DNA of 64,000 nt from Gammaproteobacteria bacterium (GTDB lineage: Bacteria; Pseudomonadota; Gammaproteobacteria; GCA-001735895), in the NCBI GenBank assembly GCA_050298595.1, contig JBNKUM010000070.1:1-64000 (forward strand), given 5' to 3'. The notes below the pieces were generated by a model, which made no database searches, had not been told where the DNA came from, and saw only the letters and a program-made list of their open reading frames with translations. Within the stretch, counting starts at the first letter, position 1. Every line of letters starts with the position of its first letter. This document shows positions 1 through 12,660 of this stretch, in pieces. The position numbers and the translations under genes were made by a program.

Positions 1-1
1 T

Positions 2-100
2 CTCGGGCACAGTCACTTACAAACAACCATGATTTATACCCATGTAAAACCTGATCATAAGAACGTGAGTAGTCCATTAGATAGACTTAAAAGTGATTAA
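2..100 (+). CDS. 3' end of a tyrosine recombinase/integrase (IntI-like or XerD-like), truncated by the window edge
   Basis: Frame +2 reads LGHSHLQTTMIYTHVKPDHKNVSSPLDRLKSD*. This is box II (LGH...TTxIYTHV, with catalytic Tyr) plus the SPLD tail seen in integron integrases and related recombinases. Not in the ORF track. Confidence 0.85.
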   Translation, partial: LGHSHLQTTMIYTHVKPDHKNVSSPLDRLKSD

Positions 101-135
101 TATGACGTAAATCTGATCAGCGGCCAAGGAAGGCC

Positions 136-193
136 AATGACAGCTTTTGGCACGAACTTGCCAAATGAATACAAAGAATTAATGTCCGCTTTT
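136..193 (+). repeat. Motif pair copy 1: AATGACAGCTTTTGGCACGAACTTGCC-N18-AATGTCCGCTTTT
   Basis: Two AATG(A/T)C(A/C)GCTT cores start at 136 and 181, 45 bp apart. The same geometry recurs at 3428/3473. Confidence 0.55.
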
Positions 194-201
194 GATAGTC
201 G

Positions 202-331
202 TATGTCGGATAATCCTGGCAGGGATGTCAGAGAGTACGAGACCATGGACGGTCGAAGGTAGGACAATGCAGGACGCTATTGTCGAGAGCAACGCAGGAC
301 GCAGTTGCCGAGCAAAGCGCCATCCGACATA
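202..331 (+). repeat. REP-like palindrome containing four GGA-loop hairpins (CsrA/RsmA-binding-like array)
   Basis: Outer inverted repeat TATGTCGGAT (202-211)/ATCCGACATA (322-331). Inner hairpins at 216-231, 241-254, 263-284 and 289-308, each with an AGGGA/ATGGA/AGGA loop. Confidence 0.65.
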
Positions 332-491
332 AACAACACAAGCACTCTGGCAAACTCAAAGGCAAGCCAATGTTGGAAGGCATCGTTCCATATACAACCT
401 ACAATTCCGGGTTACGGGTTTGAACAGCTGACTTCTCTGTTGTGGGTCTGCAATAATTGTTGCATTATTGGGAAAAAGCTAACAATAACAC

Positions 492-2144
492 ATGGATCTC
501 TTCTCCCCTCTCCTGTCATGGATTACCGAACACGCCAACACGTTTGGCTTGCCTGGGCTGATTTTTCTCGCTTATGTCCATTACCGCTACAAGGTGAACT
601 ACCGTATCTTTTTCGGCAACCCTGGGGACAGCGAGCAACTGAGGGCCGAGCATAAGAATGATCTGGACAACCGAATCGACCTGATCAATTCCCGGTCATT
701 CGAAAACCGTTACCTGCACGAGTTAACCTTGGGCCTGGACAAGGTGGCGCAAAAGTGGACCAGGGATGAGGGATCACTGCTGAGTCCATCCAAAGGCTGG
801 ACGCGGCACTGGTTTGGCGTAAATCCGTTTACTCCCGGCAGTTATCAATTCTGTTTACGCCTGGCCCTGGTGTATCCGCTGGGCGCGTTCATTTTGTCAT
901 GGGGTATGGGAGGAAGCGGGGAATTTGCCACCTTGCCTGTGCTGGATGATCAGGCGAGCGGACTTGACAGGCTCTGGGCGAACGTAGGAATTGCTTGCAT
1001 TATCTTTTTTTCTTATCAACTCAGAGTGGCAAATACATGGGCTGCCATGATTATTTATTACGCTGTCGCTTTCGCTTTCGTTCTCCCTGTCACTGACGCT
1101 GCCACTGACGCTGCCACCCGCCTTTTCCTTGCCAATTTCGCTTTGTTTTTTTCTATCGTTTTCGTTGCCGCTGTCACTGCCTATAGCGCTGGCGCTTTAG
1201 CTGTCGCTTTAGCTGCAGTCTTTGCTTTCACTGTCTTAGTCGTTGTCAAAGGCGCTAGCGCTGTCTCTTACAATGCCGCTTTCGCTGCCACCTTCGCTAC
1301 CATTCTTGTTGTCTCTGTCATTGCCGCTGTCCTTTATGCCAAAAAAGAGAATCGTATACCGTATCGGGAGAGTATTTACTGGTGGGCGTTCACACTGTAT
1401 TTCCTGCTGTATTCCCTCGCTAGCATATATCTGGTGCTACGTTATGGAAGCGCTGAGCACGTGAAGCCCATCCTGCTTCCGGTTTTTCTCTGCATACTTC
1501 CATTGCTGAATGCGCCTGTCGACTGGTTGTCACTCGGCTTTACCCGGGGCCTGCTGTACGCCATAAAAAGCGGCGACCACAGCCCGCCTAAAGCCATTGC
1601 CTGGGCGTTTGCGGACCTGGTTTTGGCGATTAGTTTCCTTCTGCTAATTGCCAGCCTCACCACTTCGGTAATGGCGATAATTAATACACTGGCTTTCCAC
1701 ATCACCGGAGCCAACCTACTGGACCTGAACGGCCTCATCGCCGGACTACGCCACACCCCCCTGGCAACTGATTACTGGTGGATACATTTCATGATGCTTT
1801 CCACCCTTGTTCCCACTCTGGTTCATTTTATGATCGCGGGCATGGCCCTGGTGCTTGTACTGCCCGAATCGCTACGCCGCAAGATGGTCGCAAGCCTGAG
1901 GCCCGAAGATTCAATTAGCGTTCTGTATGTTCCGGAAACGGTCAGAGAAGAAACCAAGCCCCGAGGTGATTATCGCCGATATGCCTTCTATTACATCACC
2001 TTCGGGCCACTGCTTGCTTTTGTTGGGCCAGCTTTTCTGCTGTGGGTTCTCTACCAGCTGGTCACGGCATGGCATGGAGCCCTCGGCTTTCTGCTATTGG
2101 ACTGGGTGGAATGGCTGGTACAGTCGATCAGCTCTGCTTTTTAG
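492..2144 (+). CDS. Uncharacterised polytopic membrane protein with a low-complexity Ala/Val/Phe tract
   Basis: 550-aa ORF with many hydrophobic helices. No recognisable catalytic motif. Confidence 0.8.
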   Translation: MDLFSPLLSWITEHANTFGLPGLIFLAYVHYRYKVNYRIFFGNPGDSEQLRAEHKNDLDNRIDLINSRSFENRYLHELTLGLDKVAQKWTRDEGSLLSPSKGWTRHWFGVNPFTPGSYQFCLRLALVYPLGAFILSWGMGGSGEFATLPVLDDQASGLDRLWANVGIACIIFFSYQLRVANTWAAMIIYYAVAFAFVLPVTDAATDAATRLFLANFALFFSIVFVAAVTAYSAGALAVALAAVFAFTVLVVVKGASAVSYNAAFAATFATILVVSVIAAVLYAKKENRIPYRESIYWWAFTLYFLLYSLASIYLVLRYGSAEHVKPILLPVFLCILPLLNAPVDWLSLGFTRGLLYAIKSGDHSPPKAIAWAFADLVLAISFLLLIASLTTSVMAIINTLAFHITGANLLDLNGLIAGLRHTPLATDYWWIHFMMLSTLVPTLVHFMIAGMALVLVLPESLRRKMVASLRPEDSISVLYVPETVREETKPRGDYRRYAFYYITFGPLLAFVGPAFLLWVLYQLVTAWHGALGFLLLDWVEWLVQSISSAF

Positions 2145-2390
2145 GATCAAATTAACTGGTGACATGTACACATTAGACACTGATCAGTGGCTATAGCTGC
2201 TATTGATCCAAACAAGTTAGCAAAATTACAAAACGGAACGGGGAGATAGGAAATAGTGAGGATGGGTCTTTAACGGCTATTTTCGGTGATAAAGAGCCAC
2301 TGTCAGAAAAGATATAGTCGAAATAAAGTCCATTGGATGTGCTTTTTCGCGTTTTTATAAGCAATAGACTAAAACCTGGAAAGGAAAATT

Positions 2391-3203
2391 ATGAATACTT
2401 ATGCTGTCAAGACTCAAGAGAATAAAAGCCAATCGGTAGCTCATTCTGTTTCTCAAAAGCAGAGTGGTAATCGGGCTACTTTTCAATTTGTTGATAATCG
2501 ACCTGAGAGTATTACTCAGCGAAAACAGCAAAAGATGATAGGCAAAAATCCACAGGTGATGTCGCCAAATCATACTAAAAGCAAAGAATCATATGTTAGA
2601 AAAATGCAGAAAGGAGTGGTTCAACGTGAATATGATTTAGCTGACAACTCAGAGGAAAACAAGGAGAAAATGAGGCTTTATGACATCGTATTACACGAAG
2701 TACACGATATACTTAGTGCAAAGAACGTTGCCTACAAGCTGCAAGGAAGTATGGCGCAAGCCATGCAGGGTGGAGGTGTGCTAGAGTTGCCCGGTGATAT
2801 AGATGTTTTAGTGCCGAGCCCCATAATTGCTGCGAATTTTCTTGCGGCATCTGGAAAGTTTACAATTACTGTTAGATCAGGAATCGTTTCGAAAGTAAAT
2901 CACAAAGACACAGGTATTCAAGTGGATTTGGCTGAAACAGATGACTTTGGAATGGCAGCTGCGGGAACTGAAGAAATAGAAGGTATTGCTGTTCTTAATC
3001 TATATGAAACGCTAACAGGATTGCTATTAAGACCAGAGAAAAGGTTGAAAGACCATGTAGCTTTTATCTCATTAATCGTTCCAAGAGGCGATGAGTTAAG
3101 TGACGAGGAAAAGGAAGCATTAGTTGGCAGAACACCTTTTAAAAGCTGGTCAGAACTGTATGGTTTTGCACTAGAAAACTATACTAAGATGGTAATGGAA
3201 TAG
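2391..3203 (+). CDS. Putative eCIS-effector-like protein: DUF4157-protein-type N-terminal leader plus nucleotidyltransferase-like domain
   Basis: RBS AAGGA upstream. N-terminus MNTYAVKTQENKSQSVA...TFQFVDNRPE...QRK, a VVQR junction, then GS(x12)GDIDVLV, a Pol-beta-fold NTase motif. Confidence 0.65.
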   Translation: MNTYAVKTQENKSQSVAHSVSQKQSGNRATFQFVDNRPESITQRKQQKMIGKNPQVMSPNHTKSKESYVRKMQKGVVQREYDLADNSEENKEKMRLYDIVLHEVHDILSAKNVAYKLQGSMAQAMQGGGVLELPGDIDVLVPSPIIAANFLAASGKFTITVRSGIVSKVNHKDTGIQVDLAETDDFGMAAAGTEEIEGIAVLNLYETLTGLLLRPEKRLKDHVAFISLIVPRGDELSDEEKEALVGRTPFKSWSELYGFALENYTKMVME

Positions 3204-3259
3204 CCTTGAAAAAAGACTTAATACATTTATGAATGCAGAGTTTGGTTTAAGATAAAAGC

Positions 3260-3312
3260 CCATAACAAAACCTAAAAGCCATTGAAAACGTCTTTTAGCC
3301 CAACTGTTATTA
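3260..3312 (+). repeat. attC-like imperfect inverted repeat downstream of ORF 2391-3203
   Basis: CCATAAC-AAAAC-CTAAAAG-(13 nt)-CTTTTAG-CCCAACT-GTTATTA: AAC/GTT outer boxes and an inner 7-bp pair. Confidence 0.5.
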
Positions 3313-3427
3313 CGTCGGTTCCCTCGTTGGGTTACGTGTAGAAGTCAGGCTCGATGATTTTCCGGTATCATGATTAGAGCTTCAGGGTTTTGATTGCGAT
3401 AGACCTACTTTTGAAATTTTGTTTCCA

Positions 3428-3483
3428 AATAACCGCAACGGGCCGAAAGCGCCCATAGCACCTGGAATAACGAATGTCAGCTT
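3428..3483 (+). repeat. Motif pair copy 2: AATAACCGCAACGGGCCGAAAGCGCCC-N18-AATGTCAGCTT
   Basis: Same 27+18 nt geometry as 136-193. The second core matches AATGTCCGCTT at 10/11 positions. Confidence 0.5.
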
Positions 3484-3552
3484 AACTGAAATTTGTGAGA
3501 TAAAATCAAGCACTGATCCACACTAGTTAGATCAAATACAACGCATTACAGG

Positions 3553-3726
3553 TCAATCCTGGCACTCAGGACAAGTCACCCCGGTTTTGCATGGATACCC
3601 ATCGATACTACATTTCACTTCTTCCGTTACAGCTATAAACGACACGATTTCTCGTGCGATCTGTTTTCTAAGCTGTTCACCATCACGATAGGCAATGGCT
3701 ATATTTGTAAGCTTGTTAATGAGATC
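3553..3726 (-). pseudogene. Start-less ORF remnant with a C-terminal 4-Cys motif, possibly phage-like
   Basis: 57 open codons DLINKLTNIAIAYRDGEQLRKQIAREI...CSIDGYPCKTGVTCPECQD*, preceded by an in-frame TGA. Confidence 0.35.
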
Positions 3727-3737
3727 TCAATATTCGT

Positions 3738-3785
3738 AGAATCAAAGGGGCAGAATTGTTGATTCTTTCAGCCCCCCTTGATTCT
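3738..3785. repeat. Short inverted-repeat element AGAATCAA(A)GGGG...CCCCTTGATTCT
   Basis: Arms at 3738-3750 and 3774-3785. TTGATTC occurs three times in 3759-3791. Confidence 0.5.
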
Positions 3786-3886
3786 TGATTCATAACAGAA
3801 GCTTTGATTTGAGAATATCAAAACCGCTAGTTTTGCTTAGATATAAACTTTATCAACCAGCGGCCTTATCGTCACTGGTTATAAAA

Positions 3887-5473
3887 TCAATGCAAACAAC
3901 ACTTCTTAAACTTCTTGCCGCTACCGCAGGGGCAAGGATCATTTCTTCCAACCTTGGGAGTTTCTCGTTCAAAGGGTTGCTGTACATCCCAGTTGAAATC
4001 ACTGTCTGGTTCGCCGAATAGCTCATCCTCATAATCTATCTCGTCTTCAGCTTCCCATGCTTCAGATTCTGACCAGCTTTGATGACGCGCTTTTATTGCC
4101 GATATTTGATAAAAACCCCAGGGTTCTCTTTCGTTTTCCCATTCTGGTTGATCGATGTCCAGACGGTATGCAGCTTCGATATCGTGTTTGTCGAATATCC
4201 TGTCAAATGCATCCTGTAACGATGCCATATGGCCGAGCAGCTCACGATAGCGGTCACGGGGAAAATTGAGCAGGCAACCTGCCGCCGGAAACCTGAATTC
4301 CCAGTCTTCATTCTCATCGGAAACAAACCCTGCGAGCCAGTCGAGGCTCGCTTCAAGGGTCTGCCCGCCCTGTTGTTTCGCGTCGGCGATAACGGCTTCA
4401 ACCAGATTTATACGGGTGTACCAGTCAATTTGTGTATCTTCACATAGTTCGCGCAGCTTGTGGATCACCGTTGCGGGTTTGTTGCGGGTCAGCGCAGGCC
4501 AGTAGCCGGCGAACCAGTCCTGGATTTCGCCGTCTTCACTGAGTCTCAAATAGTCGATAAATGGCAGTAACATCATACCTGCCTTTTCACTCGGGATTAG
4601 CCCCAGGATCATAATGGCGTGTAAGCGCATCCACCAGCGGCCTAAAGTTTCAAATGGCTCTCCTTCATTTGGGTCTGCAATAGGTGCCAGCGCCTCTACC
4701 ATTTTTTCTCCACGACTGGCGCATTCGTCGATGACGTTACGTGGTACGCGGTCTTCGTCGTCGATCATGAGTTCAATCAGTTCGGCTTCGCTTAGAGTTT
4801 TTAAATAGTCATTGTTATATTCGGGTAGTTCATCGGTCTCTGGATCGAACCCCAGGCCTGATGTTGGGGTCTCGTTTTCGCGTTGCGAAAGCCAGTAGGC
4901 ATGAATCTCTTTTGCGCAGGGTGTGATCTGTTGTTGCAGTGCATGAATCTCATCCATGTCGAGGCTGTCGAGCAGATCAAACATTTGTTCACTACCAAAA
5001 ATCACTATTGGCATAAGCATTTGGATCATGGGTTCGCTTTCGATATTCCAGTCTTCCAGACATAAGGACATGCCTCGAATATAGCCAAAACACCATTCAT
5101 CGACGACAAGATATTCTTCATCATCTACGATATTTTTTTCAAATACAGGTTGGTATTCTTCCGGCTCTTCCATCAACGTAAAGACAATGCTATTCATGAT
5201 GTCGATCATGATGCTGAATATTCTTTCGAATTGTTCTTCGTTTTCCCACTCGGGTTCAAAATCTCCCCATACTAATGGCAGCCATTGCATAGGTGAAATC
5301 ATTTTCGGGCCACTGACTATCGCGGTGAAAAAACCATCTAGCTCGGAGATACATTGTATCCCTTCATCCTTGTCGTCTGTAGATTCATCGTCGATAATTC
5401 GATTGGCTAATATTTCTTCAAGCCAGTCTAAATCAGCATCGGTGAGCATGCTCTCTGTCGAGGAGTTATTCAT
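3887..5473 (-). CDS. YecA/UPF0149-like domain + DUF1186-like region + C-terminal SEC-C zinc motif protein
   Basis: N-terminal [27 protein letters not shown] and WCFGYIRG (YecA-like). C-terminal [20 protein letters not shown]. Confidence 0.8.
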
Positions 5474-5534
5474 AATATTTATCTACTCAATGAATTGATT
5501 GCCAGGCCCTGTTAGCACTTTATGAAAAAAGAAT

Positions 5535-6248
5535 TTATATTTTCGATTTTATCGAATCAGATCTAAGCTTCTGCTGAAGGTATGTATACACATGACTGTC
5601 TTGCCTGATTATAAGCTCGTAACACAGTTGACAAATAGACAGAACAACAAAATAGGAGATAAAAACATCACTGAAGAAATGCCCACCTGCCGTAATTCTG
5701 GCAAGCCCTACACTAAAGCCATATAGTGTTGCTAAAGCGACCCACCACCCACGTTTTCTGGTCGTCAGAAAAGCCAGCGCCAAAACAAAAAATGCGCCTG
5801 CCGCATGCCCCGAAGAGAATGAACAGTTTTTTTCACACTGATCACTGATTACAAAGGCTGGTGTAAATATTTTATCCCCACCAAACTCTGTGACGGTGAG
5901 TGGACGCGCTCGACCAAAATGGTCTTTGAATAAGCTATTTACAATAAGGCCTGGACCGACAATCAATGCGATCAATAAATACAGGGTTATCCTGCCATTG
6001 ACCTTAAGCAGGTTGCGTCGAAAAATTTTATTAAAAAGATACAGACCCAGCACTCCGAATACAACCGTTTTAAGTAATATCGGCACCGAGTTGTAGAGTA
6101 GTGTCACCCACCATGAATCCTTGAGATAAAACCCCTGTTCGGGAGTGTAAAACAAAGAGGTGATCTGTATATCAATTTGCGGATAAAGAATCAGCAGGAT
6201 AGATGACAAAATATTGAACAGCAGTGCTATCTTGAATTTGGTTGACAT
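5535..6248 (-). CDS. PAP2-family phosphatase, probable lipid A phosphatase (LpxE/LpxF-like)
   Basis: Motifs KDHFGRARP, SFSSGH, RITAGGHFFSD. Membrane protein adjacent to lpxL/waaA. Start taken at MSTKF (6248); the ORF extends to 6272. Confidence 0.75.
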   Translation of the reverse strand: MSTKFKIALLFNILSSILLILYPQIDIQITSLFYTPEQGFYLKDSWWVTLLYNSVPILLKTVVFGVLGLYLFNKIFRRNLLKVNGRITLYLLIALIVGPGLIVNSLFKDHFGRARPLTVTEFGGDKIFTPAFVISDQCEKNCSFSSGHAAGAFFVLALAFLTTRKRGWWVALATLYGFSVGLARITAGGHFFSDVFISYFVVLSICQLCYELIIRQDSHVYTYLQQKLRSDSIKSKI

Positions 6249-6289
6249 CGGTGGATTGTAATATAGATACAAAGATCAAGACATAAGAT

Positions 6290-7216
6290 TTAATAGACTG
6301 CTGCTTCACCCGGAGGTCGGGTTTTAAAACGCCGGTGTACCCATACATACTGCTCAGGATATTGCGCGACCTGAGATTCAATCACCTGATTTATCTGTAG
6401 TGCATCCAGGCTATCATCGCCGGATGGAAAATTTTGCAGCGGCGGTAGAAATCTCACCAGGTAACGACCATTGGTTTGATAAAAAAAGAATAAGGGTATG
6501 ACCACCGCTCCGGTAGATTTCGCAAGCCGCGAGGTCGAGGTCAGGGTTGCTGTCTGTACCCCGAAAAATGGCGCGAATACACTGCGACGACGACCGAAAT
6601 CCTGATCGGGCGCATACCATAAACCCTCACCCTGCTTCAGGAATCGAATCATATTGCGCATATCCATGCGTTCCAGCACTCGTTGATAGGCTTGTGTACG
6701 TGAGCGATATACCATGACATCCATCAGCGAGTTATTCATTTTCTGGTAGGTGATATTAAAACGATATTTCTTTGCCAGCAGGCGCCCACCCAGTTCCATC
6801 GCAAAGGTATGCCCGCCCATCATGATCACGCCACGTCCGCTGGACAGGGCCTGCTCGAAGTATTCCAGACCTTCAAAATCGACCGGTATTTTTTGCAGCC
6901 GTTTTTTTGATCCCCACCATACCAGAGGCATTTCCATAAGCATCATCCCCATACTCGAAAAAACTCGCTTTACCAGATAGGTCTGTTGAGTCTGATCCAG
7001 TTCAGGAAATGCCAGCTTGATATTGGTGAGCGATATTTTTTTTCGCTGAGGTAACAGGTAATAAAACACCTGACCAAGCCCCCTGCCCAATACGTGGCTG
7101 AGCTGCAGCGGCAGATAGGCCACCAGATGAGACAGACCAATAAATACCCACATCAGCCAGTACTTTGGTGCCAGGTAATGGTATAGCTCGAGTTTTTCAG
7201 GTGCGCGGCTTTTCAT
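6290..7216 (-). CDS. lpxL: Lipid A lauroyl acyltransferase (LpxL/LpxP family)
   Basis: HTFAME, WYAPDQDFG and PEQYVWVHRRFKTRP motifs. Confidence 0.9.
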   Translation of the reverse strand: MKSRAPEKLELYHYLAPKYWLMWVFIGLSHLVAYLPLQLSHVLGRGLGQVFYYLLPQRKKISLTNIKLAFPELDQTQQTYLVKRVFSSMGMMLMEMPLVWWGSKKRLQKIPVDFEGLEYFEQALSSGRGVIMMGGHTFAMELGGRLLAKKYRFNITYQKMNNSLMDVMVYRSRTQAYQRVLERMDMRNMIRFLKQGEGLWYAPDQDFGRRRSVFAPFFGVQTATLTSTSRLAKSTGAVVIPLFFFYQTNGRYLVRFLPPLQNFPSGDDSLDALQINQVIESQVAQYPEQYVWVHRRFKTRPPGEAAVY

Positions 7217-8444
7217 CGATCTCGCTTTGTATAATCTGCATCAGCTTTGTGGTTGCCCCCTGACCTTTGCGCAAGACACTCTGTCCCTGTTTTATCAGGG
7301 TCTGGATCTGTTGAGAATTATGCATCAGGTTTTTCAATGCTGTAGCCAGGTTTTCTGCTGTGACCAGAACAACTGCCTGTTGTTGCTCAAGCTCGGCATA
7401 GGCTTCAGAAAAATTAAATACATGGGGGCCGGTCAGCACTACGGCATCATACAGTAATGCTTCATAGGGATTGTGTCCGCCGGTTTGAACCAGGCTGCCA
7501 CCAATAAATGCCAGATCTGCCAATTGGTAGAACTTTAGAAGATCACCCATGGTGTCGCCCAGTAGTACATCGCTATCATGACAGGTTTCAGAATCACTGA
7601 AACGCTGATAACTAAAGCCCTGTTTTTCTATTAATCTGGCTACTTCTTCAAACCGTTCAGGATGCCTTGGCACCAGGATCAGGGTGCATTCATCCCCTGC
7701 CTCCAGCAATTTGCGTTGCGCGGCCAGCACCAGTTCATCCTCACCACGGTGGGTACTCGCGGCCACCCACAATGGACGGTTAAACCTTTGCTTTAATGTT
7801 TCAGCAGCCTGAATAGTCGCAGGATCTGGATGCACATCCAGCTTGATGTTACCCATAACATCTAAACGCTTTACTCCCAGTTGCTGAAAATACTGACTAT
7901 CCTGACTGGACCTTGCAGCCACATGGATGGCAGCAAATACCGGCTTAAGCATATTTTGAAACCGTGCGTAACCTGCTGCACTTTTCGCGGAGAGGCGTGC
8001 ATTGGCAATCACTACTGGTACAGCCTGTTGCTGGCAGCCCATAATCAGGCTCGGCCAGATTTCGGTTTCCATGATAATGCCCACTCTCGGTTGCCAGTTA
8101 CGCAAAAAGCGCTTTACCGCAAAAGGAACATCCAGCGGCAGGTAGCTATGTAGCGCGAAGGGATATTTACGACGGACACGTTCCGAGCCAGTAGGTGTGG
8201 TTGATGTTATCAATATAGGAATATCTGGATATTGAAGCTGCAGAGTATGAATCAACGGAGCTGCGGCTTCGGCCTCTCCCACAGATACCGCATGTACCCA
8301 GATCACGGATTTTTGTGGGCTTTGACAAAAACCCAGGCGCTCTTTCCAGCGTTTCCGATAGGCTGCATTGTGTCGGCTACGCCATAGCAGGCGTATAAAC
8401 ACAAACGGTAGTAGCAGGTGCATCATCAGCTTATACAGTGCCAT
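7197..8444 (-). CDS. waaA: Kdo transferase
   Basis: IWVHAVSVGE, METEIWP, AASTHRGED, LVPRHPERF, GGSL..GGHNPYE. Confidence 0.95.
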   Translation of the reverse strand: MALYKLMMHLLLPFVFIRLLWRSRHNAAYRKRWKERLGFCQSPQKSVIWVHAVSVGEAEAAAPLIHTLQLQYPDIPILITSTTPTGSERVRRKYPFALHSYLPLDVPFAVKRFLRNWQPRVGIIMETEIWPSLIMGCQQQAVPVVIANARLSAKSAAGYARFQNMLKPVFAAIHVAARSSQDSQYFQQLGVKRLDVMGNIKLDVHPDPATIQAAETLKQRFNRPLWVAASTHRGEDELVLAAQRKLLEAGDECTLILVPRHPERFEEVARLIEKQGFSYQRFSDSETCHDSDVLLGDTMGDLLKFYQLADLAFIGGSLVQTGGHNPYEALLYDAVVLTGPHVFNFSEAYAELEQQQAVVLVTAENLATALKNLMHNSQQIQTLIKQGQSVLRKGQGATTKLMQIIQSEIDEKPRT

Positions 8445-9534
8445 TAGCCGTTCCCTTTTCGATTAAGCCCTGATATACCGCCAGATTACCTTCAACCATA
8501 GCCTCGATAGAGTATTCCCGTTCTACCAGTTGACGACCCGCCATTCCGAATTGCTGTCGGGTATGCGGTTCATCGATCAGTCGTTTGAGTGCCTGCACCA
8601 GTCCGGCCAGATCACCCGGTTCAATCAGCAGACCATTTTCTTCATCGTACACGATCTCGGGCATACCGCCAGCACGGCTGGCAATTACCGGTACACTACA
8701 GGCAGCCGCCTGGATCAGCGAGATGCCCAATCCTTCCATCAACGCTGGATGTACCAGCACATCGATACAGCCCAGCCAGTTTGGCAGGTCGTGACGGAAA
8801 CCGGTGAATTGCACTCGGTCCTGCAATCCTCGTTCCTGGGCTTCCTGCTCCAGCGAGTCCTTTAACGGCCCCTGCCCAAAGCAGATCAGGCGTAATTGCG
8901 GATAGCTCGATACCAGTTGTTGCATGGCCTGCAATACCAGGCTATGCCCCTTGCGAGGTATCAGTTGTGCCACCATGCCAAGGACGACATGATCTGTCTG
9001 GGTATCAAACTCTTCATTGAATTTTTTGCGATCGCATCGATTTTGCCAGCCATTGGCATCAATGGCACTACGTACGGTGATGACCTTTTGTGCCGGGACA
9101 CCCTCCCCCAGCAAGACCTGACGAATACCTTCGGATATGCAAATGATCCGATCATAGAGGCGATATTTTAGCCCGACCCACCAGAGCGCTTCTGGGTTAT
9201 CCACACGTCGGGACAACACTGTTGGAATACCGGCAATGGATCCTGCAAGTCCTCCCCAGATATCCGCGCCCCGTCGGCTGTGACTATGAATGATGTCAGG
9301 CCGATGTTGTTTGATCAGCTTGAGCAATTTAAACATCAGGCGAAAATCCACATCGCCACGCAGCGAAAGCTGATGCACATCGGCCATGTCTTCTACCTCT
9401 GTAGCAATTGCACTGCCCTGCTGACAAACCAGGATATTTTCTATGTCACGACGATGCAGCCCTTCGATAATATAGGCAACCTGACGCGCGCCACCATATA
9501 GATGACGTCCGGTTTCTATGTGCAGTACCTTCAT
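8431..9534 (-). CDS. GT4 glycosyltransferase
   Basis: YGGARQV, RKGH and EGLGISLIQA...PVIASRAGGMPE. Confidence 0.9.
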   Translation of the reverse strand: MKVLHIETGRHLYGGARQVAYIIEGLHRRDIENILVCQQGSAIATEVEDMADVHQLSLRGDVDFRLMFKLLKLIKQHRPDIIHSHSRRGADIWGGLAGSIAGIPTVLSRRVDNPEALWWVGLKYRLYDRIICISEGIRQVLLGEGVPAQKVITVRSAIDANGWQNRCDRKKFNEEFDTQTDHVVLGMVAQLIPRKGHSLVLQAMQQLVSSYPQLRLICFGQGPLKDSLEQEAQERGLQDRVQFTGFRHDLPNWLGCIDVLVHPALMEGLGISLIQAAACSVPVIASRAGGMPEIVYDEENGLLIEPGDLAGLVQALKRLIDEPHTRQQFGMAGRQLVEREYSIEAMVEGNLAVYQGLIEKGTANGTV

Positions 9535-9535
9535 G

Positions 9536-10570
9536 TCAAACTGATCCGGGGCTGATTTGCTTTACTGTAGCCATCACCTCGGGCACCGTGATTAATTGCA
9601 TACAGCTGAATTCATTATTGCACTGAGGTCTACGCCGACAGGGTGAACACCAGAGTTTATGGTACAGGACTTTACCGTTGGGATTGCTGGGGTCGAGGTA
9701 GGGACTAGTAGAGCCGAAAATTGAAATTGTGGGTCGTTGCAAAGCATGTCCCATATGGGTTAAACCGGTATCCACGCCAATCACGATACTGGCCCGGGAG
9801 ATTATCGCGGCTGCCGTTAACAATGAGGTTACACCAACCAGGTTACGCAGCTCTGGTAGATTATCTGCAATCTTTTCGGCGGCTGCTTTATCAGCCGGAC
9901 CACCCAACATCACAACGTCATAACCTTTGCTCTGTAAATGCGATACCAGCTCACGCCAGCTATGCTCGAACCAGTGTTTCTGGGGACGTGTGGTGAATGG
10001 CAATATAACAGCGATATCTTTTTTCAACTCATTGGAAACGATAATCTCTTCCGCCTGCTGGTGACTTTTATCATCAATTGACAGGTGCAGGTCAAGCTGT
10101 TCGCTAGACAGACCCATCTGCTCGGCCAGATAGCGGTATTCAGAACTGATCAAACTTGCTTCACCACCCTTGGCAAACACCTGTGTCATCAGATACTGGC
10201 TGCCTTCGCGTGAACCCAGACCTATACGCTGTCTGGCATTGCTCTGCCAGGCCCAGATACCACTCTTTAACAAGCCCTGGAGATCTATCGCCAGATCTGC
10301 ATCCAGCGCCCTTAAGTCTGCTCTAAGCCTGCGCCATGCCCTGAACAGGCGTATGAATTGCCCCTGCCTGATGTAGCCACGCCATTCCTGTTTGGGCCAG
10401 GTGATCACCTGATCGATAGCGGGCTCGGCATCCAGTAATGGCTTAATGGCTGGCTCACATAACCAGGTAATCTTTGCATCAGGGTATTTACGCCGTAACG
10501 CCTGCACAAAAGGGCTGGTAAAAACAAAATCCCCAATAGCGCTTAGGCGTATGATCAAGATTGACTTCAA
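9536..10570 (-). CDS. GT9 heptosyltransferase (WaaC/WaaF family)
   Basis: ILIIRLSAIGD, DLQGLLKS, GVDTGLTH. TTG start. Confidence 0.9.
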   Translation of the reverse strand: MKSILIIRLSAIGDFVFTSPFVQALRRKYPDAKITWLCEPAIKPLLDAEPAIDQVITWPKQEWRGYIRQGQFIRLFRAWRRLRADLRALDADLAIDLQGLLKSGIWAWQSNARQRIGLGSREGSQYLMTQVFAKGGEASLISSEYRYLAEQMGLSSEQLDLHLSIDDKSHQQAEEIIVSNELKKDIAVILPFTTRPQKHWFEHSWRELVSHLQSKGYDVVMLGGPADKAAAEKIADNLPELRNLVGVTSLLTAAAIISRASIVIGVDTGLTHMGHALQRPTISIFGSTSPYLDPSNPNGKVLYHKLWCSPCRRRPQCNNEFSCMQLITVPEVMATVKQISPGSV

Positions 10571-10848
10571 TGATTTGCTCTTTTACTTGAAGGTTAAAAG
10601 GGAATTATACGGGAAAATCAACACAGGTCTGCCAGGTTGTCGTAAATCCATAAAGCGGTCTATTCGATACTTCAATATGCAAGGAAAATAGAGAAAACAT
10701 AACCAGAGTTCTCCTTGCTTTTTGAATAGTATCAGGCATTTATTAAGTATCACGCAGTTTAGAGAAGAGGAAGTTTGGAGGTCGGTATATTATCTGTCAT
10801 ACTTCGTTTCCCGTCTCGCAATTGTACACCAATCACCTAATTTGACCA

Positions 10849-12660
10849 ATGTGTGGTATCGCAGGAATATACGCTAAAAGCGCTGGAGATTACTCTCCTG
10901 ATGGCGCAAAAATGGCCCAACAGCTGGAGCATCGTGGCCCGGATAACACTACCGTATATCAACTGCAAAACGGGGTTCTGGTACATACACGTCTGTCTAT
11001 CATTGATCTGGAGCATGGTAATCAGCCACTATCTAATCATGATGAATCCATTCAGCTGGTCGCTAATGGCGAGATTTATAACTTTATCGAGCTAAGACAG
11101 GAGCTTGAAAAACATAAAGCTCAATTCAAAACACATTCAGACTGTGAAACCATACTGCATGCTTACGCTGAGCATACACAGGATTTTGTCCAGCGCCTGA
11201 ATGGCATGTTTGCTTTTGCCCTGCATGATTCAAATCGCCAGACCCTGACACTGGCACGTGATCGGCTCGGTATTAAACCCCTGTTTTATACCGTGCAAAA
11301 TGACCGGGTATTATTTGCTTCTGAGATCAAGGCAATACTGACTGCGCTGGGTTCTATACCCGAGTTGATTGATGACTCCTTGCAGCAGTTTTTACAGAAT
11401 CAGTTTATCTCTGGCAGAGAAACCATGTATCAGGGCATCTATAAGGTGCTGCCAGGTGAAATCATTGAATTTAATGCTGCGCTGGAGATGAGTCGCAGGC
11501 AATACTGGGATCCCATCGCCAGCGTCAATCAGTTCGAGTTTGGAGATGATATCTATGCTGAGTTTAATACCTCGTTCAATACTGTAATCGAGCAACATAT
11601 TCGCTCCGATGTTCCCTTTGGCCTGTTTCTTTCAGGTGGTGCCGATTCGGCTATTTTGTTAGCCATGTTGAGCCAGTTTCATGCACAGCCTATCAGCACC
11701 TTCTCGGTGGGGTTCAAGGGCCGGGATAAACAGAATGAAACCAATGATGCCAGTTACATTGCTGATAAATTCAATAGCAACCACCATACCTTACTGCTGG
11801 ACAGTGACGATATCTTCAATCGAATACCATTGATGACCTGGTCTGCAGATGACCTGATGCGTGATTATGCCAGCCTGCCTACGCTGGCTTTAGCGGAGTA
11901 CGCCGCACAGGATTTGAAGGTTGTTTTTTCGGGTGAAGGGGGTGATGAAGCCTTTGCTGGTTACAGACGCTACCACCCGCGTGGTTTTGAGAACCAGATT
12001 AAGAGCCTGATCTACCCCGGAACTCAGGGGTTTAGAACACGAGGGCAGTTGGGCTCGCTGGCACCATTTTTCAGGGATAGCTCAATACCCAAAAAGTCAG
12101 ACTTTCGTAACCATTTTCAAACTGCATGGAAGTCCTGCCCGAAACACTGGAGCTTTATGCAGAAAGCCCAGTACACCGATATCAAAACAGCGCTAAGCGA
12201 TAACCTGCTGGTCAAATCCGACCGCATGCTGATGGCCTTTGGCCTGGAAGGAAGAGTTCCTTTTGTCGATCATCGTGTCATTGAATTTGGCCTGGCCTTA
12301 CCCGATCAGTTTAAATATCAGGATAAAAAAGGGAAATTCTTCCTTAAGAAATGGGCTGAGCAATATATTCCGCCTGACTATCTGCACAGAAAAAAACGCG
12401 GATTTTACGTGCCTATCGATAGCTGGCTAACCCAGGACTCACTACAACAACATCTTAGACAGAAACTGTTGAGTAATAAGGCGATACAAAACTGGTTCGA
12501 CACCGATAAAATCAATCAGCTTTTTAAGAATGATCGTCATATCAAAAAATACAGCAGGCATATTATGTGTCTTATGCAATTTGCCATATGGCACAATATG
12601 TCGGTCAACGCCTTCAGGCAAAGACCTTCGAGCAATGAAAGCATCTTTGACTGGCTCTAA
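10849..12660 (+). CDS. asnB: Asparagine synthase-like glutamine amidotransferase (polysaccharide-associated)
   Basis: MCGIAG, HRGPD, RLSIID, NGEIYN, LSGGADS, SGEGGDE, EGRVPF. Confidence 0.92.
   Translation: MCGIAGIYAKSAGDYSPDGAKMAQQLEHRGPDNTTVYQLQNGVLVHTRLSIIDLEHGNQPLSNHDESIQLVANGEIYNFIELRQELEKHKAQFKTHSDCETILHAYAEHTQDFVQRLNGMFAFALHDSNRQTLTLARDRLGIKPLFYTVQNDRVLFASEIKAILTALGSIPELIDDSLQQFLQNQFISGRETMYQGIYKVLPGEIIEFNAALEMSRRQYWDPIASVNQFEFGDDIYAEFNTSFNTVIEQHIRSDVPFGLFLSGGADSAILLAMLSQFHAQPISTFSVGFKGRDKQNETNDASYIADKFNSNHHTLLLDSDDIFNRIPLMTWSADDLMRDYASLPTLALAEYAAQDLKVVFSGEGGDEAFAGYRRYHPRGFENQIKSLIYPGTQGFRTRGQLGSLAPFFRDSSIPKKSDFRNHFQTAWKSCPKHWSFMQKAQYTDIKTALSDNLLVKSDRMLMAFGLEGRVPFVDHRVIEFGLALPDQFKYQDKKGKFFLKKWAEQYIPPDYLHRKKRGFYVPIDSWLTQDSLQQHLRQKLLSNKAIQNWFDTDKINQLFKNDRHIKKYSRHIMCLMQFAIWHNMSVNAFRQRPSSNESIFDWL

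What the first reader, a model, noticed from the sequence alone, without database searches (positions are those of the whole stretch)
136..193. Degenerate motif pair with exact 45-bp spacing repeated at both ends of the island
Seen: copy 1 is AATGACAGCTTTTGGCACGAACTTGCC + 18 nt + AATGTCCGCTT (starts 136, 181). Copy 2 is AATAACCGCAACGGGCCGAAAGCGCCC + 18 nt + AATGTCAGCTT (starts 3428, 3473). The spacers are unrelated but the same length. Inference: conserved spacing with degenerate cores suggests a multi-box recombinase binding or crossover site. It is not attC, dif or a CRISPR repeat.
Basis: seen in the sequence. Interest (0 to 1): 0.7.

Follow-up and report, generated by a model that had tools for sequence, protein, structure and literature searches.

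The report
Dispersed box-palindrome repeat, IS landing pad
The motif pair is real, but it is two copies of a short repeated element scattered between this bacterium's genes, whose clearest property is that one insertion sequence lands precisely inside it; it does not mark the two ends of an island.

Summary
The boxes are at 136/181 and 3428/3473, 45 nt apart. Across the 5.49-Mb genome, pairs of AAYGWCNGCT peak at spacing 45: 5 exact pairs against 0-3 at any other spacing from 20 to 80, and 16 against at most 9 with one mismatch.

The island reading is only partly supported. A profile finds 38 copies at E<=0.01. They are intergenic, lie in both orientations, and sit beside housekeeping genes such as leuA and rtcBA/rtcR. 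Each box is a half-site: box 1 has an inverted partner after exactly 10 nt.

A 1.69-kb IS1182/IS5-type insertion sequence and its 172-bp MITE insert at the centre of that palindrome (10-nt box, 3 nt, then a 4-bp duplication). A box lies at that offset in 20 of 22 paired ends.

Copy 1 lies behind the 3' end of a multi-copy integron-integrase paralogue, not at attI. The two ORFs between the copies are absent from 13 related genomes, but synteny breaks fall at 141, 153, about 300-420, about 3777 and about 3887, not at one motif position.

Verdict: a new member of a known kind, a REP/BIME/NIME-like mosaic repeat that an IS targets. An unexplained extra is that a box follows the integrase stop codon at +32 to +35 in diverged members of that integrase clade.

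The parts
1..100 (+). Last 32 codons and the stop (TAA at 98-100) of an integron-integrase (IntI) paralogue. The contig starts inside the gene because the gene is multi-copy.
   Evidence: Translation ...LGHSHLQTTMIYTHVKPDHKNVSSPLDRLKSD*. The same 153 nt occur at C26:1-153 (98%) and in G001:C128 (98%), and a diverged pseudogene copy is at C99. The C99 fragment hits TIGR02249 integron integrase best (243 bits over 217 aa).
122..135 (+). Small hairpin GGCC-AAGGAA-GGCC directly before box 1
   Evidence: The same position holds ACC..GGT in C99, GACC..GGTC in G013 and GGCCCA..TGGGCC in L046, so the stem is kept through changes on both sides (read by eye).
136..145 (+). Copy 1, box 1 (AATGACAGCT)
   Evidence: Profile hit 133-194, E 1.1e-8.
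149..152 (+). GGCA, the predicted 4-bp insertion/duplication point of the IS1182-type element. It is unoccupied in this copy. Sequence shared with G001 ends at 153.
   Evidence: Fixed offset (box, 3 nt, 4-bp duplication) in 20 of 22 paired ends. C70/G001 divergence at ...TGGCAC|. Loose-end branch at 153 in run X3.
146..180 (+). a-type spacer containing the palindrome TTTGGCA-CGAACT-TGCCAAA
   Evidence: The same spacer is found at C75:3388-3454 (87%) and C104:5641-5697 (88%).
181..190 (+). Copy 1, box 2 (AATGTCCGCT), 45 nt after box 1
197..420 (+). Mosaic of other dispersed, genus-wide repeat modules. They are not part of the two-box core but are often found beside it.
   Evidence: About 30 partial matches in G000. 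Matches in 12 of 61 genomes searched, G000 included. The same modules follow leuA in G001 and G010. Summed contig depth of 1-420 is about 5-17 times that of the island in runs X1-X3 and about 3-7 times in X4.
492..2144 (+). ORF of 550 aa, a predicted multi-pass membrane protein with no family
   Evidence: No NCBIfam or Pfam hit. The Atlas lists only unnamed Pseudomonadota clusters at 0.93. Absent from 13 other genus genomes.
2205..2230 (+). Partial copy of the right-flank module that also follows copy 2 (GATCCAAACAAGTTAGCAAAATTACA)
   Evidence: Repeat family D4. Exact core at 2205 and 3515.
2391..3203 (+). ORF of 270 aa, no family
   Evidence: No NCBIfam or Pfam hit. Atlas leads only, at most 0.76. 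Absent from 13 other genus genomes.
3428..3457 (+). Copy 2, first box palindrome: AATAACCGCA-ACG-GGCC-GAA-AGCGCCCATA (degenerate box, 10-nt gap, inverted box)
   Evidence: Profile hit 3425-3486, E 1.3e-5. Gap-10 inverted-box signal across the family.
3473..3482 (+). Copy 2, box 2 (AATGTCAGCT), 45 nt after its box 1
3487..3545 (+). Right-flank module that also follows c-type copies at C104 and C110 (...AGATAAAATCAAG...GTTAGATCAAATA...)
   Evidence: Window 3440-3538 matches G000:C100 (78%) and G001:C1 (81%).

Best explanation
The two motif pairs are ordinary members of a dispersed, modular intergenic repeat family found in this uncultured gammaproteobacterium and its genus.

The unit is a 10-nt box (AAYGWCNGCT). 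It is followed by 3 nt, a 4-nt centre, 3 nt and, in many copies, an inverted box, giving a palindrome of about 30 nt. A second box follows 45 nt after the first, often with its own inverted partner, and sometimes a third and a fourth box follow at about the same period. Different left and right flank modules are joined to this core, so copies look like mosaics.

Shown: the family exists and the spacing is constrained. An IS1182/IS5-type DDE insertion sequence and its MITE insert at the palindrome centre and duplicate 4 bp.

Inferred: the transposase recognises the box palindrome by sequence or by cruciform. IS-mediated events at that centre, together with recombination among repeats, explain why homology between copies stops right after box 1. 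These events make box-bearing intergenic regions rearrangement hot spots, including the region behind the integrase gene.

Inferred and weaker: the elements also have a strand-specific role or tolerance in 3' untranslated DNA.
For: Family: spacing-45 excess. 38 profile hits at E<=0.01, of which 17 were seeds, clustered on C26, C55, C69, C86, C76, C8, C32 and C104. 13 exact pairs in 5 of 14 genus genomes with 0 control hits.

Context: neighbours are leuA, rtcA/rtcB/rtcR, an Hsp70-type gene, a H+-pyrophosphatase and a chemoreceptor. 3 of 38 sites overlap an ORF of at least 100 aa.

Architecture: inverted-box consensus score after box 1 peaks at gap 10 (mean 6.0 against about 3.5; 11 of 37 copies at >=7/10, against 0-1 at every other gap except gap 18 with 7 and gap 19 with 2). 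After box 2 it peaks at gap 7 (9 of 37). Third and fourth boxes at about 45-nt period.

IS targeting: the 172-bp MITE has 19 copies. Full-length 1,686-bp copies lie on C67 and C64, with a 477-aa transposase carrying DUF772, DDE_Tnp_1 and DDE_Tnp_1_6. Of 22 paired ends (one a spurious internal pairing at C104), 12 have a perfect and 5 a one-mismatch 4-bp duplication. 20 have a box (>=8/10) at the fixed offset, against a background of 0.0039 per position, and 12 have box-like sequence on both flanks. In G001, MITE copies again abut the L1 + box 1 module.

Literature, passages read in PMC5678879: IS1272 targets inverted repeats/stem-loops; the authors say Siguier et al. place IS1272 in the IS1182 family, some members of which target palindromes; their model allows duplication of the loop only.

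Not island-specific: breakpoints against relatives are scattered.
Against: The core has no terminal inverted repeats or duplications of its own, and no clean empty site was found, so how it spreads is unknown.

Overall folding is barely better than shuffles (mean z -0.52 on each strand; z<-2 in 4 and 3 of 38), so it is not a strong REP-type hairpin.

The a-type copy at 136 has only a weak inverted box; its palindrome is offset by 3 nt.

The 45-nt spacing is kept across at least 10 unrelated spacer types (my grouping by eye). Simple common descent does not explain this; it hints at a function needing both boxes.

Two-box pairs occur in G012, G004 and G011, where the MITE was not found, so IS targeting cannot be why the family exists.

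The C70/C26 divergence starts at about 141, before the IS insertion point.

A box at a fixed offset after the integrase stop in diverged integrases is not predicted by this explanation.
Confidence: 0.68

Rival explanations
1. The boxes are att-type sites of a site-specific recombinase, most plausibly the IntI paralogue encoded directly upstream. Recombination between box sites moves or swaps DNA segments, including the integrase platform itself and the two-ORF segment.
For: A box lies +32 to +35 nt after the stop codon in C70/C26/G001, C99, G013 (69% aa identity, with a second box-like sequence at +45) and L046 (68%). Each is preceded by a hairpin whose stem covaries, and the canonical C89 intI has none. 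Copies of the integrase gene are 98% identical up to box 1 and unrelated beyond it. Halves of sites are exchanged at TGG|CAC. Spacing is constrained across unrelated spacers.
Against: The boxes are direct repeats 45 nt apart. As I recall, tyrosine-recombinase cores are inverted arms around 6-8 bp, whereas the box palindrome has a 10-nt gap. Genuine attC sites of this genome look different, and attI and the cassettes lie on the 5' side of the paralogue. Two-box pairs occur in G004 and G011, where the paralogue was not found at E<=1e-40. Junction positions differ: 141, 153 and 300-420. Sites flank housekeeping genes in both orientations.
Confidence: 0.12
2. The elements serve the host: either a protein-binding palindrome pair for a nucleoid or regulatory protein, or an RNA-level element in 3' untranslated regions. 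IS targeting is incidental.
For: Strong orientation bias: the gene on the box-2 side points its 3' end at the element in 30 of 35 scorable cases; 3 of 38 sites overlap an ORF. Spacing is conserved across unrelated spacers. The family is present in genomes without the IS.
Against: No Rfam family matches. There is no U-run after the hairpins (read) and folding is weak. No candidate binding protein was identified. Convergent intergenic space also simply tolerates insertions, which could give the same bias.
Confidence: 0.12
3. Box 1 (...TGGCA) is the terminus of a larger Tn402/Tn7-like transposon that carries the integron, with repeated boxes as multiple transposase-binding sites. Dispersed copies are decayed ends.
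For: The shared integrase segment ends at ...TGGCA(C) in C70 and G001. Boxes are direct repeats at regular spacing. As I recall, class 1 integrons have a transposon end just beyond intI1.
Against: Box 2 lies outside the shared segment yet is always present at +45. No tni/tns-type genes were looked for or seen near the sites. The copies sit among housekeeping genes without partner ends. C26 diverges before the supposed terminus.
Confidence: 0.05

Closest known systems
REP / BIME elements of enterobacteria and pseudomonads (recalled; also named in the listed abstract of PMC12288879 as targets of ISPpu9)
   Same: Short imperfect palindromes, intergenic, dispersed, clustered with other motifs into mosaics, and used as specific insertion targets by certain IS.
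   Different: Only about 40-55 copies. Weak hairpin energy. Boxes repeat in direct orientation at 45 nt rather than alternating. No link to Y1/RAYT transposase genes: 3 of 23 loci have a single exact box within 1 kb and 0 of 23 have a two-box hit within 2 kb.
Neisserial intergenic mosaic elements (dRS3 repeats flanking variable RS modules) (recalled, not read)
   Same: A short conserved repeat separates modules drawn from several unrelated families. Mosaics differ between loci and strains, and the short repeat is a target of mobile DNA.
   Different: Unrelated sequence and host. Here the mobile element shown to use the site is a DDE IS, and the conserved repeat is a 10-nt half-site of a 30-nt palindrome.
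IS1272 and other IS1182-family elements that target inverted repeats (PMC5678879, passages read)
   Same: The IS here has the DUF772 + DDE_Tnp_1_6 transposase type and terminal inverted repeats, and it inserts into palindromes.
   Different: IS1272 is reported to replace the target stem-loop without a duplication and to accept inverted repeats of different sequence. Here a 4-bp duplication at the palindrome centre is usual (12 perfect and 5 near-perfect of 22), and one sequence family of palindromes is used (20 of 22).
Integron attC / attI sites
   Same: Copy 1 lies 35 nt from an integron-integrase gene, and structure matters more than spacer sequence.
   Different: It lies at the 3' end of intI. 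Boxes are direct, not the RYYYAAC...GTTRRRY inverted cores seen in this genome's own attC sites on C89. Orientation is mixed and the neighbours are housekeeping genes.

Membership tests
Integron attC site | Inverted core sites RYYYAAC ... GTTRRRY bounding an imperfect palindrome (definition recalled) | tested here: not met
   Boxes 1 and 2 are direct repeats. Neither copy has the inverted cores, whereas five attC sites on C89 of the same genome do. No attC covariance model was available, so this rests on reading the sequences.
Integron attC site | Uniformly oriented array starting at attI on the 5' side of intI | tested here: not met
   Copy 1 is 3' of intI. In G001 the cassette and attC lie on the 5' side. 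Genome-wide sites are in both orientations.
dif / Xer-type core site | Two inverted arms around a 6-8-bp central region (recalled) | tested here: not met
   The inverted box follows box 1 at a gap of 10 nt, with no signal at gaps 6-8. There are about 40 copies rather than one per replicon.
CRISPR array | Three or more regularly spaced identical repeats of about 23-47 nt with unique spacers (recalled) | tested here: not met
   The conserved box is 10-18 nt, with 2-4 units per site, and spacers recur between loci as types a, b and c. cas genes were not searched for.
REP/BIME (RAYT-associated) | Short intergenic imperfect palindromes, dispersed and clustered | tested here: met
   3 of 38 sites overlap an ORF. 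Clusters on C55, C69, C86 and others. Box palindrome at gap 10. However, the folding z-score is only -0.5.
REP/BIME (RAYT-associated) | A Y1 (RAYT) transposase gene flanked by the repeats | tested here: not met
   26 PF01797 matches in the genome. Of 23 loci examined (3 overlapping matches dropped), 3 have one exact box within 1 kb and 0 have a two-box hit within 2 kb.
MITE (the two-box core itself) | Uniform unit with terminal inverted repeats and a target duplication; empty sites in relatives | tested here: inconclusive
   Flank modules vary between copies. Orthologous loci in relatives were too rearranged or repeat-rich to give an empty site.
MITE (the 172-bp element inserted in the boxes) | Terminal inverted repeats shared with an autonomous IS, a target duplication, many uniform copies | tested here: met
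   19 copies of 169-172 bp. The same ends as the 1,686-bp IS on C67 and C64. 4-bp duplication.
IS1182-family insertion sequence | DDE transposase with DUF772 and DDE_Tnp_1_6 domains, terminal inverted repeats, length 1.3-2 kb (family limits recalled) | tested here: met
   PF05598 at 63 bits, PF13751 at 53 bits and PF01609 at 48 bits, all above cut-off. 1,686 bp with inverted ends. No ISfinder comparison was possible, so IS5 family is not excluded.
Integron integrase (gene at window 1-100) | Match to the integron-integrase model, including the IntI-specific extra segment | tested here: inconclusive
   The window holds only the last 32 codons. The paralogous C99 fragment (217 aa between two stops) scores 243 bits to TIGR02249, its best family, but below the 265-bit cut-off set for whole proteins. 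The segment ...KKYPSASREIGWQFVFPS... is present. The separate C89 IntI scores 466 bits.

The most novel reading that the evidence does not exclude
The box is the boundary and crossover point of a mobile integron platform. In one clade of integron integrases (C-terminus IYTHxxPDxKNVxSPLD), a covarying hairpin plus a box sits 32-35 nt after the stop codon in lineages as far apart as 68-69% protein identity. Copies of the gene in one genome are identical up to that box and unrelated after it. Dispersed box sites would then be docking sites through which the whole integrase-plus-array unit, and other segments, are exchanged between chromosomal loci. That would be a route of integron mobility not tied to Tn402/Tn7-type transposons.
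Probability: 0.12. Interest if true: 0.75.

Novelty: new member of a known kind. Interest (0 to 1): 0.3.

Why it matters
It replaces an attractive but wrong picture, a pair of att sites framing an island, with a testable one. This is a family of box palindromes that one IS1182-type element hits with near-complete specificity (20 of 22 paired ends). That gives a natural system for studying how this poorly understood IS family chooses palindromic targets, here with a clean 4-bp duplication.

It also explains why assemblies of these uncultured sulfur-cycle-related gammaproteobacteria break at such sites, and why their intergenic regions are mosaics.

The conserved box behind one integrase clade is the one feature that could turn out to be more than ordinary genome wear.

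Tried and rejected
- **Rfam scan** of window 1-12000 at E<=10: only chance-level hits, none on the boxes.
- **attC reading** of 3480-3532 (GCTTAAC...GTTAGAT): dropped because the arms pair poorly and the stretch is a flank module repeated at C104 and C110.
- **Sigma-54 promoter reading** of TGGCAC-N5-TTGC in copy 1: the GG-to-GC distance is 9, not the 10 I recall as required, and other subtypes lack it.
- **RAYT/Y1 transposase link**: not found.
- **Strong-hairpin (REP-like) folding**: mean z -0.52 on both strands.
- **Empty-site search** at three housekeeping loci: leuA (C55), rtcR (C69) and LysR (C86). Flanks were either rearranged or saturated with genus-wide repeats, so there was no clean occupied/empty pair. 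One informative junction was found at C86 against G012.
- **Excision test with public data**: four runs of one study (two may be the source sample), held as contigs only. No contig joins about 153 to about 3445. Listed joints only skip the 235-288 module. Contigs drop rare forms, so nothing follows about excision.
- **Depth of the island against its right flank**: not interpretable, because depth is one figure per contig.
- **Earlier-findings look-up by sequence**: nothing.
- **Atlas look-ups of the two ORFs**: no usable family.
- **Literature**: two full-text searches about IS1182 targets and IS insertion into REP. I read passages of PMC5678879 only and saw the others as listings or abstract starts. 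I ran no search on this organism's repeats, so I do not claim the element is undescribed beyond these searches.
- ****: failed because my coordinates included stop codons of the C99 pseudogene; I corrected the coordinates.

Full report
**Observation.** Each pair is 45 nt apart start to start, and the spacers are unrelated. In the window AATGWCMGCTT occurs only at 136, 181 and 3473, against 0.25 expected; 2 of 100 shuffles reached three. The paired pattern matches twice and never in 100 shuffles, but it was built from these copies.

The independent test is genome-wide. The window is the first 64 kb of contig C70 of a 5.49-Mb, 119-contig assembly. Among 274 exact AAYGWCNGCT boxes, same-strand pairs occur 5 times at spacing 45, once each at 36 and 44, three times at 47, and never at any other spacing from 20 to 80. 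With one mismatch the count is 16 at 45, 9 at 42 and at most 5 elsewhere.

**What surrounds copy 1.** Window 1-100 is the end of a tyrosine recombinase gene (...LGHSHLQTTMIYTHVKPDHKNVSSPLDRLKSD, stop at 98-100).
- The same 153 nt start contig C26 (98%), and a diverged copy with two in-frame stops lies at C99:103-1032.
- That copy carries the integron-integrase-type segment ...KKYPSASREIGWQFVFPS.... Its 217-aa open part hits TIGR02249 'integron integrase' best, at 243 bits.
- A separate, intact, canonical IntI (466 bits) with a classical divergent array and textbook attC sites lies on C89.
- In a related genome, G001, the paralogue sits mid-contig with a cassette and an attC-like site on its 5' side.

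The boxes therefore lie behind the integrase gene, not at attI, and they do not resemble this genome's attC sites.

**The pair is one of many.**
- A profile built from 17 copies finds 38 sites at E<=0.01 and 99 at E<=10. They cluster on C26 (134, 953, 1990), C55, C69, C86, C76, C8, C32 and C104, in both orientations.
- The genes between them are housekeeping genes: leuA, rtcA/rtcB/rtcR, an Hsp70-type chaperone with a J-domain partner, a proton pyrophosphatase, a chemoreceptor and a LysR regulator.
- Three of 38 sites overlap an ORF of at least 100 aa. The gene on the box-2 side points its 3' end at the element in 30 of 35 scorable cases; on the box-1 side the split is 16 to 16.
- The exact paired pattern occurs 13 times in 5 of 14 genomes of the genus, and once each in 3 of 400 other genomes sampled across the class. 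The reversed control gave 0 hits in both searches.
- Relatives of the integrase paralogue are in MAGs labelled Gammaproteobacteria, Thiohalomonadaceae and Ca. Thiodiazotropha.

**Anatomy.** Spacers fall into recurring types. I call them a (TGGCAC..ACTTGCC...), b (TGGCACACCAGAGAC...) and c (GGGTCGAC..CAGCC...). Copy 1 is type a and copy 2 is type c, which is why their spacers look unrelated.
- The best-conserved b units have a third box about 43 nt after the second, and on C55 a fourth 45 nt further on.
- The box is a half-site. The reverse complement of the 10 nt lying 10 nt after box 1 scores 6.0 of 10 to the box consensus on average, against about 3.5 at other gaps. Eleven of 37 copies reach 7 of 10. 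Other gaps have 0-1 such copies, except gap 18 with 7 and gap 19 with 2. Box 2 has a partner at gap 7 in 9 of 37 copies.
- Whole-element folding is only marginally better than shuffles (mean z -0.52 on each strand).
- Left and right flank modules recur in different combinations. Window 197-420 is a mosaic of other genus-wide modules that also follow leuA in G001 and G010.
- No Rfam family matches.

**What uses the site.** In several copies box 1 is separated from the rest of the element by a 172-bp MITE with inverted ends CAGGCTGTGTGAAAAC. The MITE has 19 copies.
- Two 1,686-bp elements with the same ends, on C67 and C64, encode a 477-aa transposase with DUF772, DDE_Tnp_1 and DDE_Tnp_1_6 domains, the IS1182/IS5 type.
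- Of 22 paired ends (one is a spurious internal pairing at C104), 12 have a perfect 4-bp duplication and 5 have one mismatch. The duplicated bases are GGTC, GGCA, GGTA or TTGA.
- Twenty of 22 have a box (>=8/10) exactly 17 nt before the IS end on at least one flank, against 0.39% per position by chance. Twelve have box-like sequence on both flanks in inverted orientation.
- The target is therefore the centre of the box palindrome: 10-nt box, 3 nt, 4 duplicated nt, 3 nt, inverted box.
- In copy 1 that point is GGCA at 149-152, and it is unoccupied.
- The MITE is found in G000 (19 copies) and G001 (15 copies) only, of 14 genus genomes. In G001 it again abuts the box-1 module. Exact two-box pairs also occur in G012, G004 and G011, so the repeat family does not depend on this IS.
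- Passages I read in PMC5678879 report that IS1272 inserts at inverted repeats. They also say that Siguier et al. describe IS1182-family members that target palindromes, and they give a model in which only the loop is duplicated.
- No link to Y1/RAYT transposases was found.

**Junctions and the 'island'.** C70 and G001 are 98% identical up to ...AATGACAGCTTTTGGCAC and unrelated after it, yet each has a box 45 nt on. C26 departs from C70 already at about 141. C75 and C104 share the right half of copy 1 but not the left. At the C86 locus, G012 keeps box 2 and its right flank but has a different, shorter left part that ends in ...TTGG|CAC. So the point after box 1 is a recurrent junction, which fits IS-mediated exchange at the duplicated 4 bp, but it is not the only junction.

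The two ORFs between the copies match no NCBIfam or Pfam family and are absent from the 13 other genus genomes. However:
- G012 shares window 34-300 and then continues into DNA that G000 keeps on C47.
- On the right, homology with G001 starts at about 3777 and with G010 at about 3887.
- Both right-hand breaks are well outside copy 2.

Public contigs from four runs of one study show no record joining copy 1 to copy 2. This proves nothing either way. They do confirm that 1-420 is multi-copy and that 153 is a branch point.

**An unexplained extra.** In members of this integrase clade, a box follows the stop codon at +35 (C70, C26, G001, C99) or +32 (G013, 69% identity, with a second box-like sequence at +45; L046, 68%). 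Each time it is preceded by a short hairpin whose stem differs but stays complementary: GGCC/GGCC, ACC/GGT, GACC/GGTC and GGCCCA/TGGGCC. The canonical C89 gene has nothing similar. Thiodiazotropha-type relatives have box-like sequences further downstream. This is the basis of the novel reading and of the recombinase rival. I could not test it further.

**Verdict.** It is nevertheless a dispersed REP/BIME/NIME-like box-palindrome repeat that an IS1182-type element targets, not a pair of sites that define this island. Notes from this scan on other genomes describe the same kind of relationship. They are unverified and were not used as evidence.

Noticed in passing
window 197-420, also G000:C56:32754-32981, C100:65385-65718, C51, C94 and many loci in the genus: A second, larger family of modular dispersed repeats (units about 197-237, 235-277 and 286/311-420). 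It includes a tandem pair, CAATGCAGGACGCTATTGTCGAG / CAACGCAGGACGCAGTTGCCGAG, and a long-range complement, GTCGGAT (205-211) ... ATCCGAC (321-327). One copy in another family of the class (G038) is 88% identical. The modules follow leuA in G001 and G010. No Rfam hit.
   Followed up: partly
G000:C89:72475-73383 and downstream (L009:3470-8299): A complete classical chromosomal integron: an intact 335-aa IntI (TIGR02249, 466 bits) with at least five cassettes bounded by canonical attC sites.
   Followed up: partly
G000:C75:87841-88698 (L010:3833-5211) and L010:6740-8114: A third IntI-like gene split into 209-aa and 144-aa pieces. Beside it are ORFs that look to me like a reverse transcriptase of a group II intron, read from the translations only and not tested.
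   Followed up: no
G000 genome, 26 places: Unusually many Y1_Tnp (IS200/IS605- or RAYT-type) matches, many with in-frame stops. None is associated with the boxes.
   Followed up: partly
L019 (G001:C128), about 140 nt upstream of the integrase paralogue's reading frame; contig C99 of G000 starts inside the same sequence: A near-perfect 30-nt palindrome, GTCACGTTATCATTGTAATGATAATGTGAC. It is a candidate attI core of this integrase clade, and the assembly breaks there.
   Followed up: no
window 2391-3203: An orphan 270-aa ORF. Its N-terminal part (...FQFVDNRPESITQRKQQKM...) and the stretch ...LELPGDIDVLVPSP... reminded me of polymorphic-toxin leader regions and of nucleotidyltransferase motifs. 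The only tool hint is one Atlas cluster at 0.75 in which 17% of members carry PF10706.
   Followed up: partly
window 3309-3336: A stretch of about 30 nt with about 3-fold higher summed contig depth and alternative continuations on both sides in all four runs, so it is another short repeat or graph branch inside the 'island' side of copy 2.
   Followed up: no
window 3887-5473 (- strand): A 528-aa protein combining a YecA/UPF0149-type N-terminal part with a C-terminal SEC-C metal-binding motif. Paralogues are present in G001 and G004.
   Followed up: no
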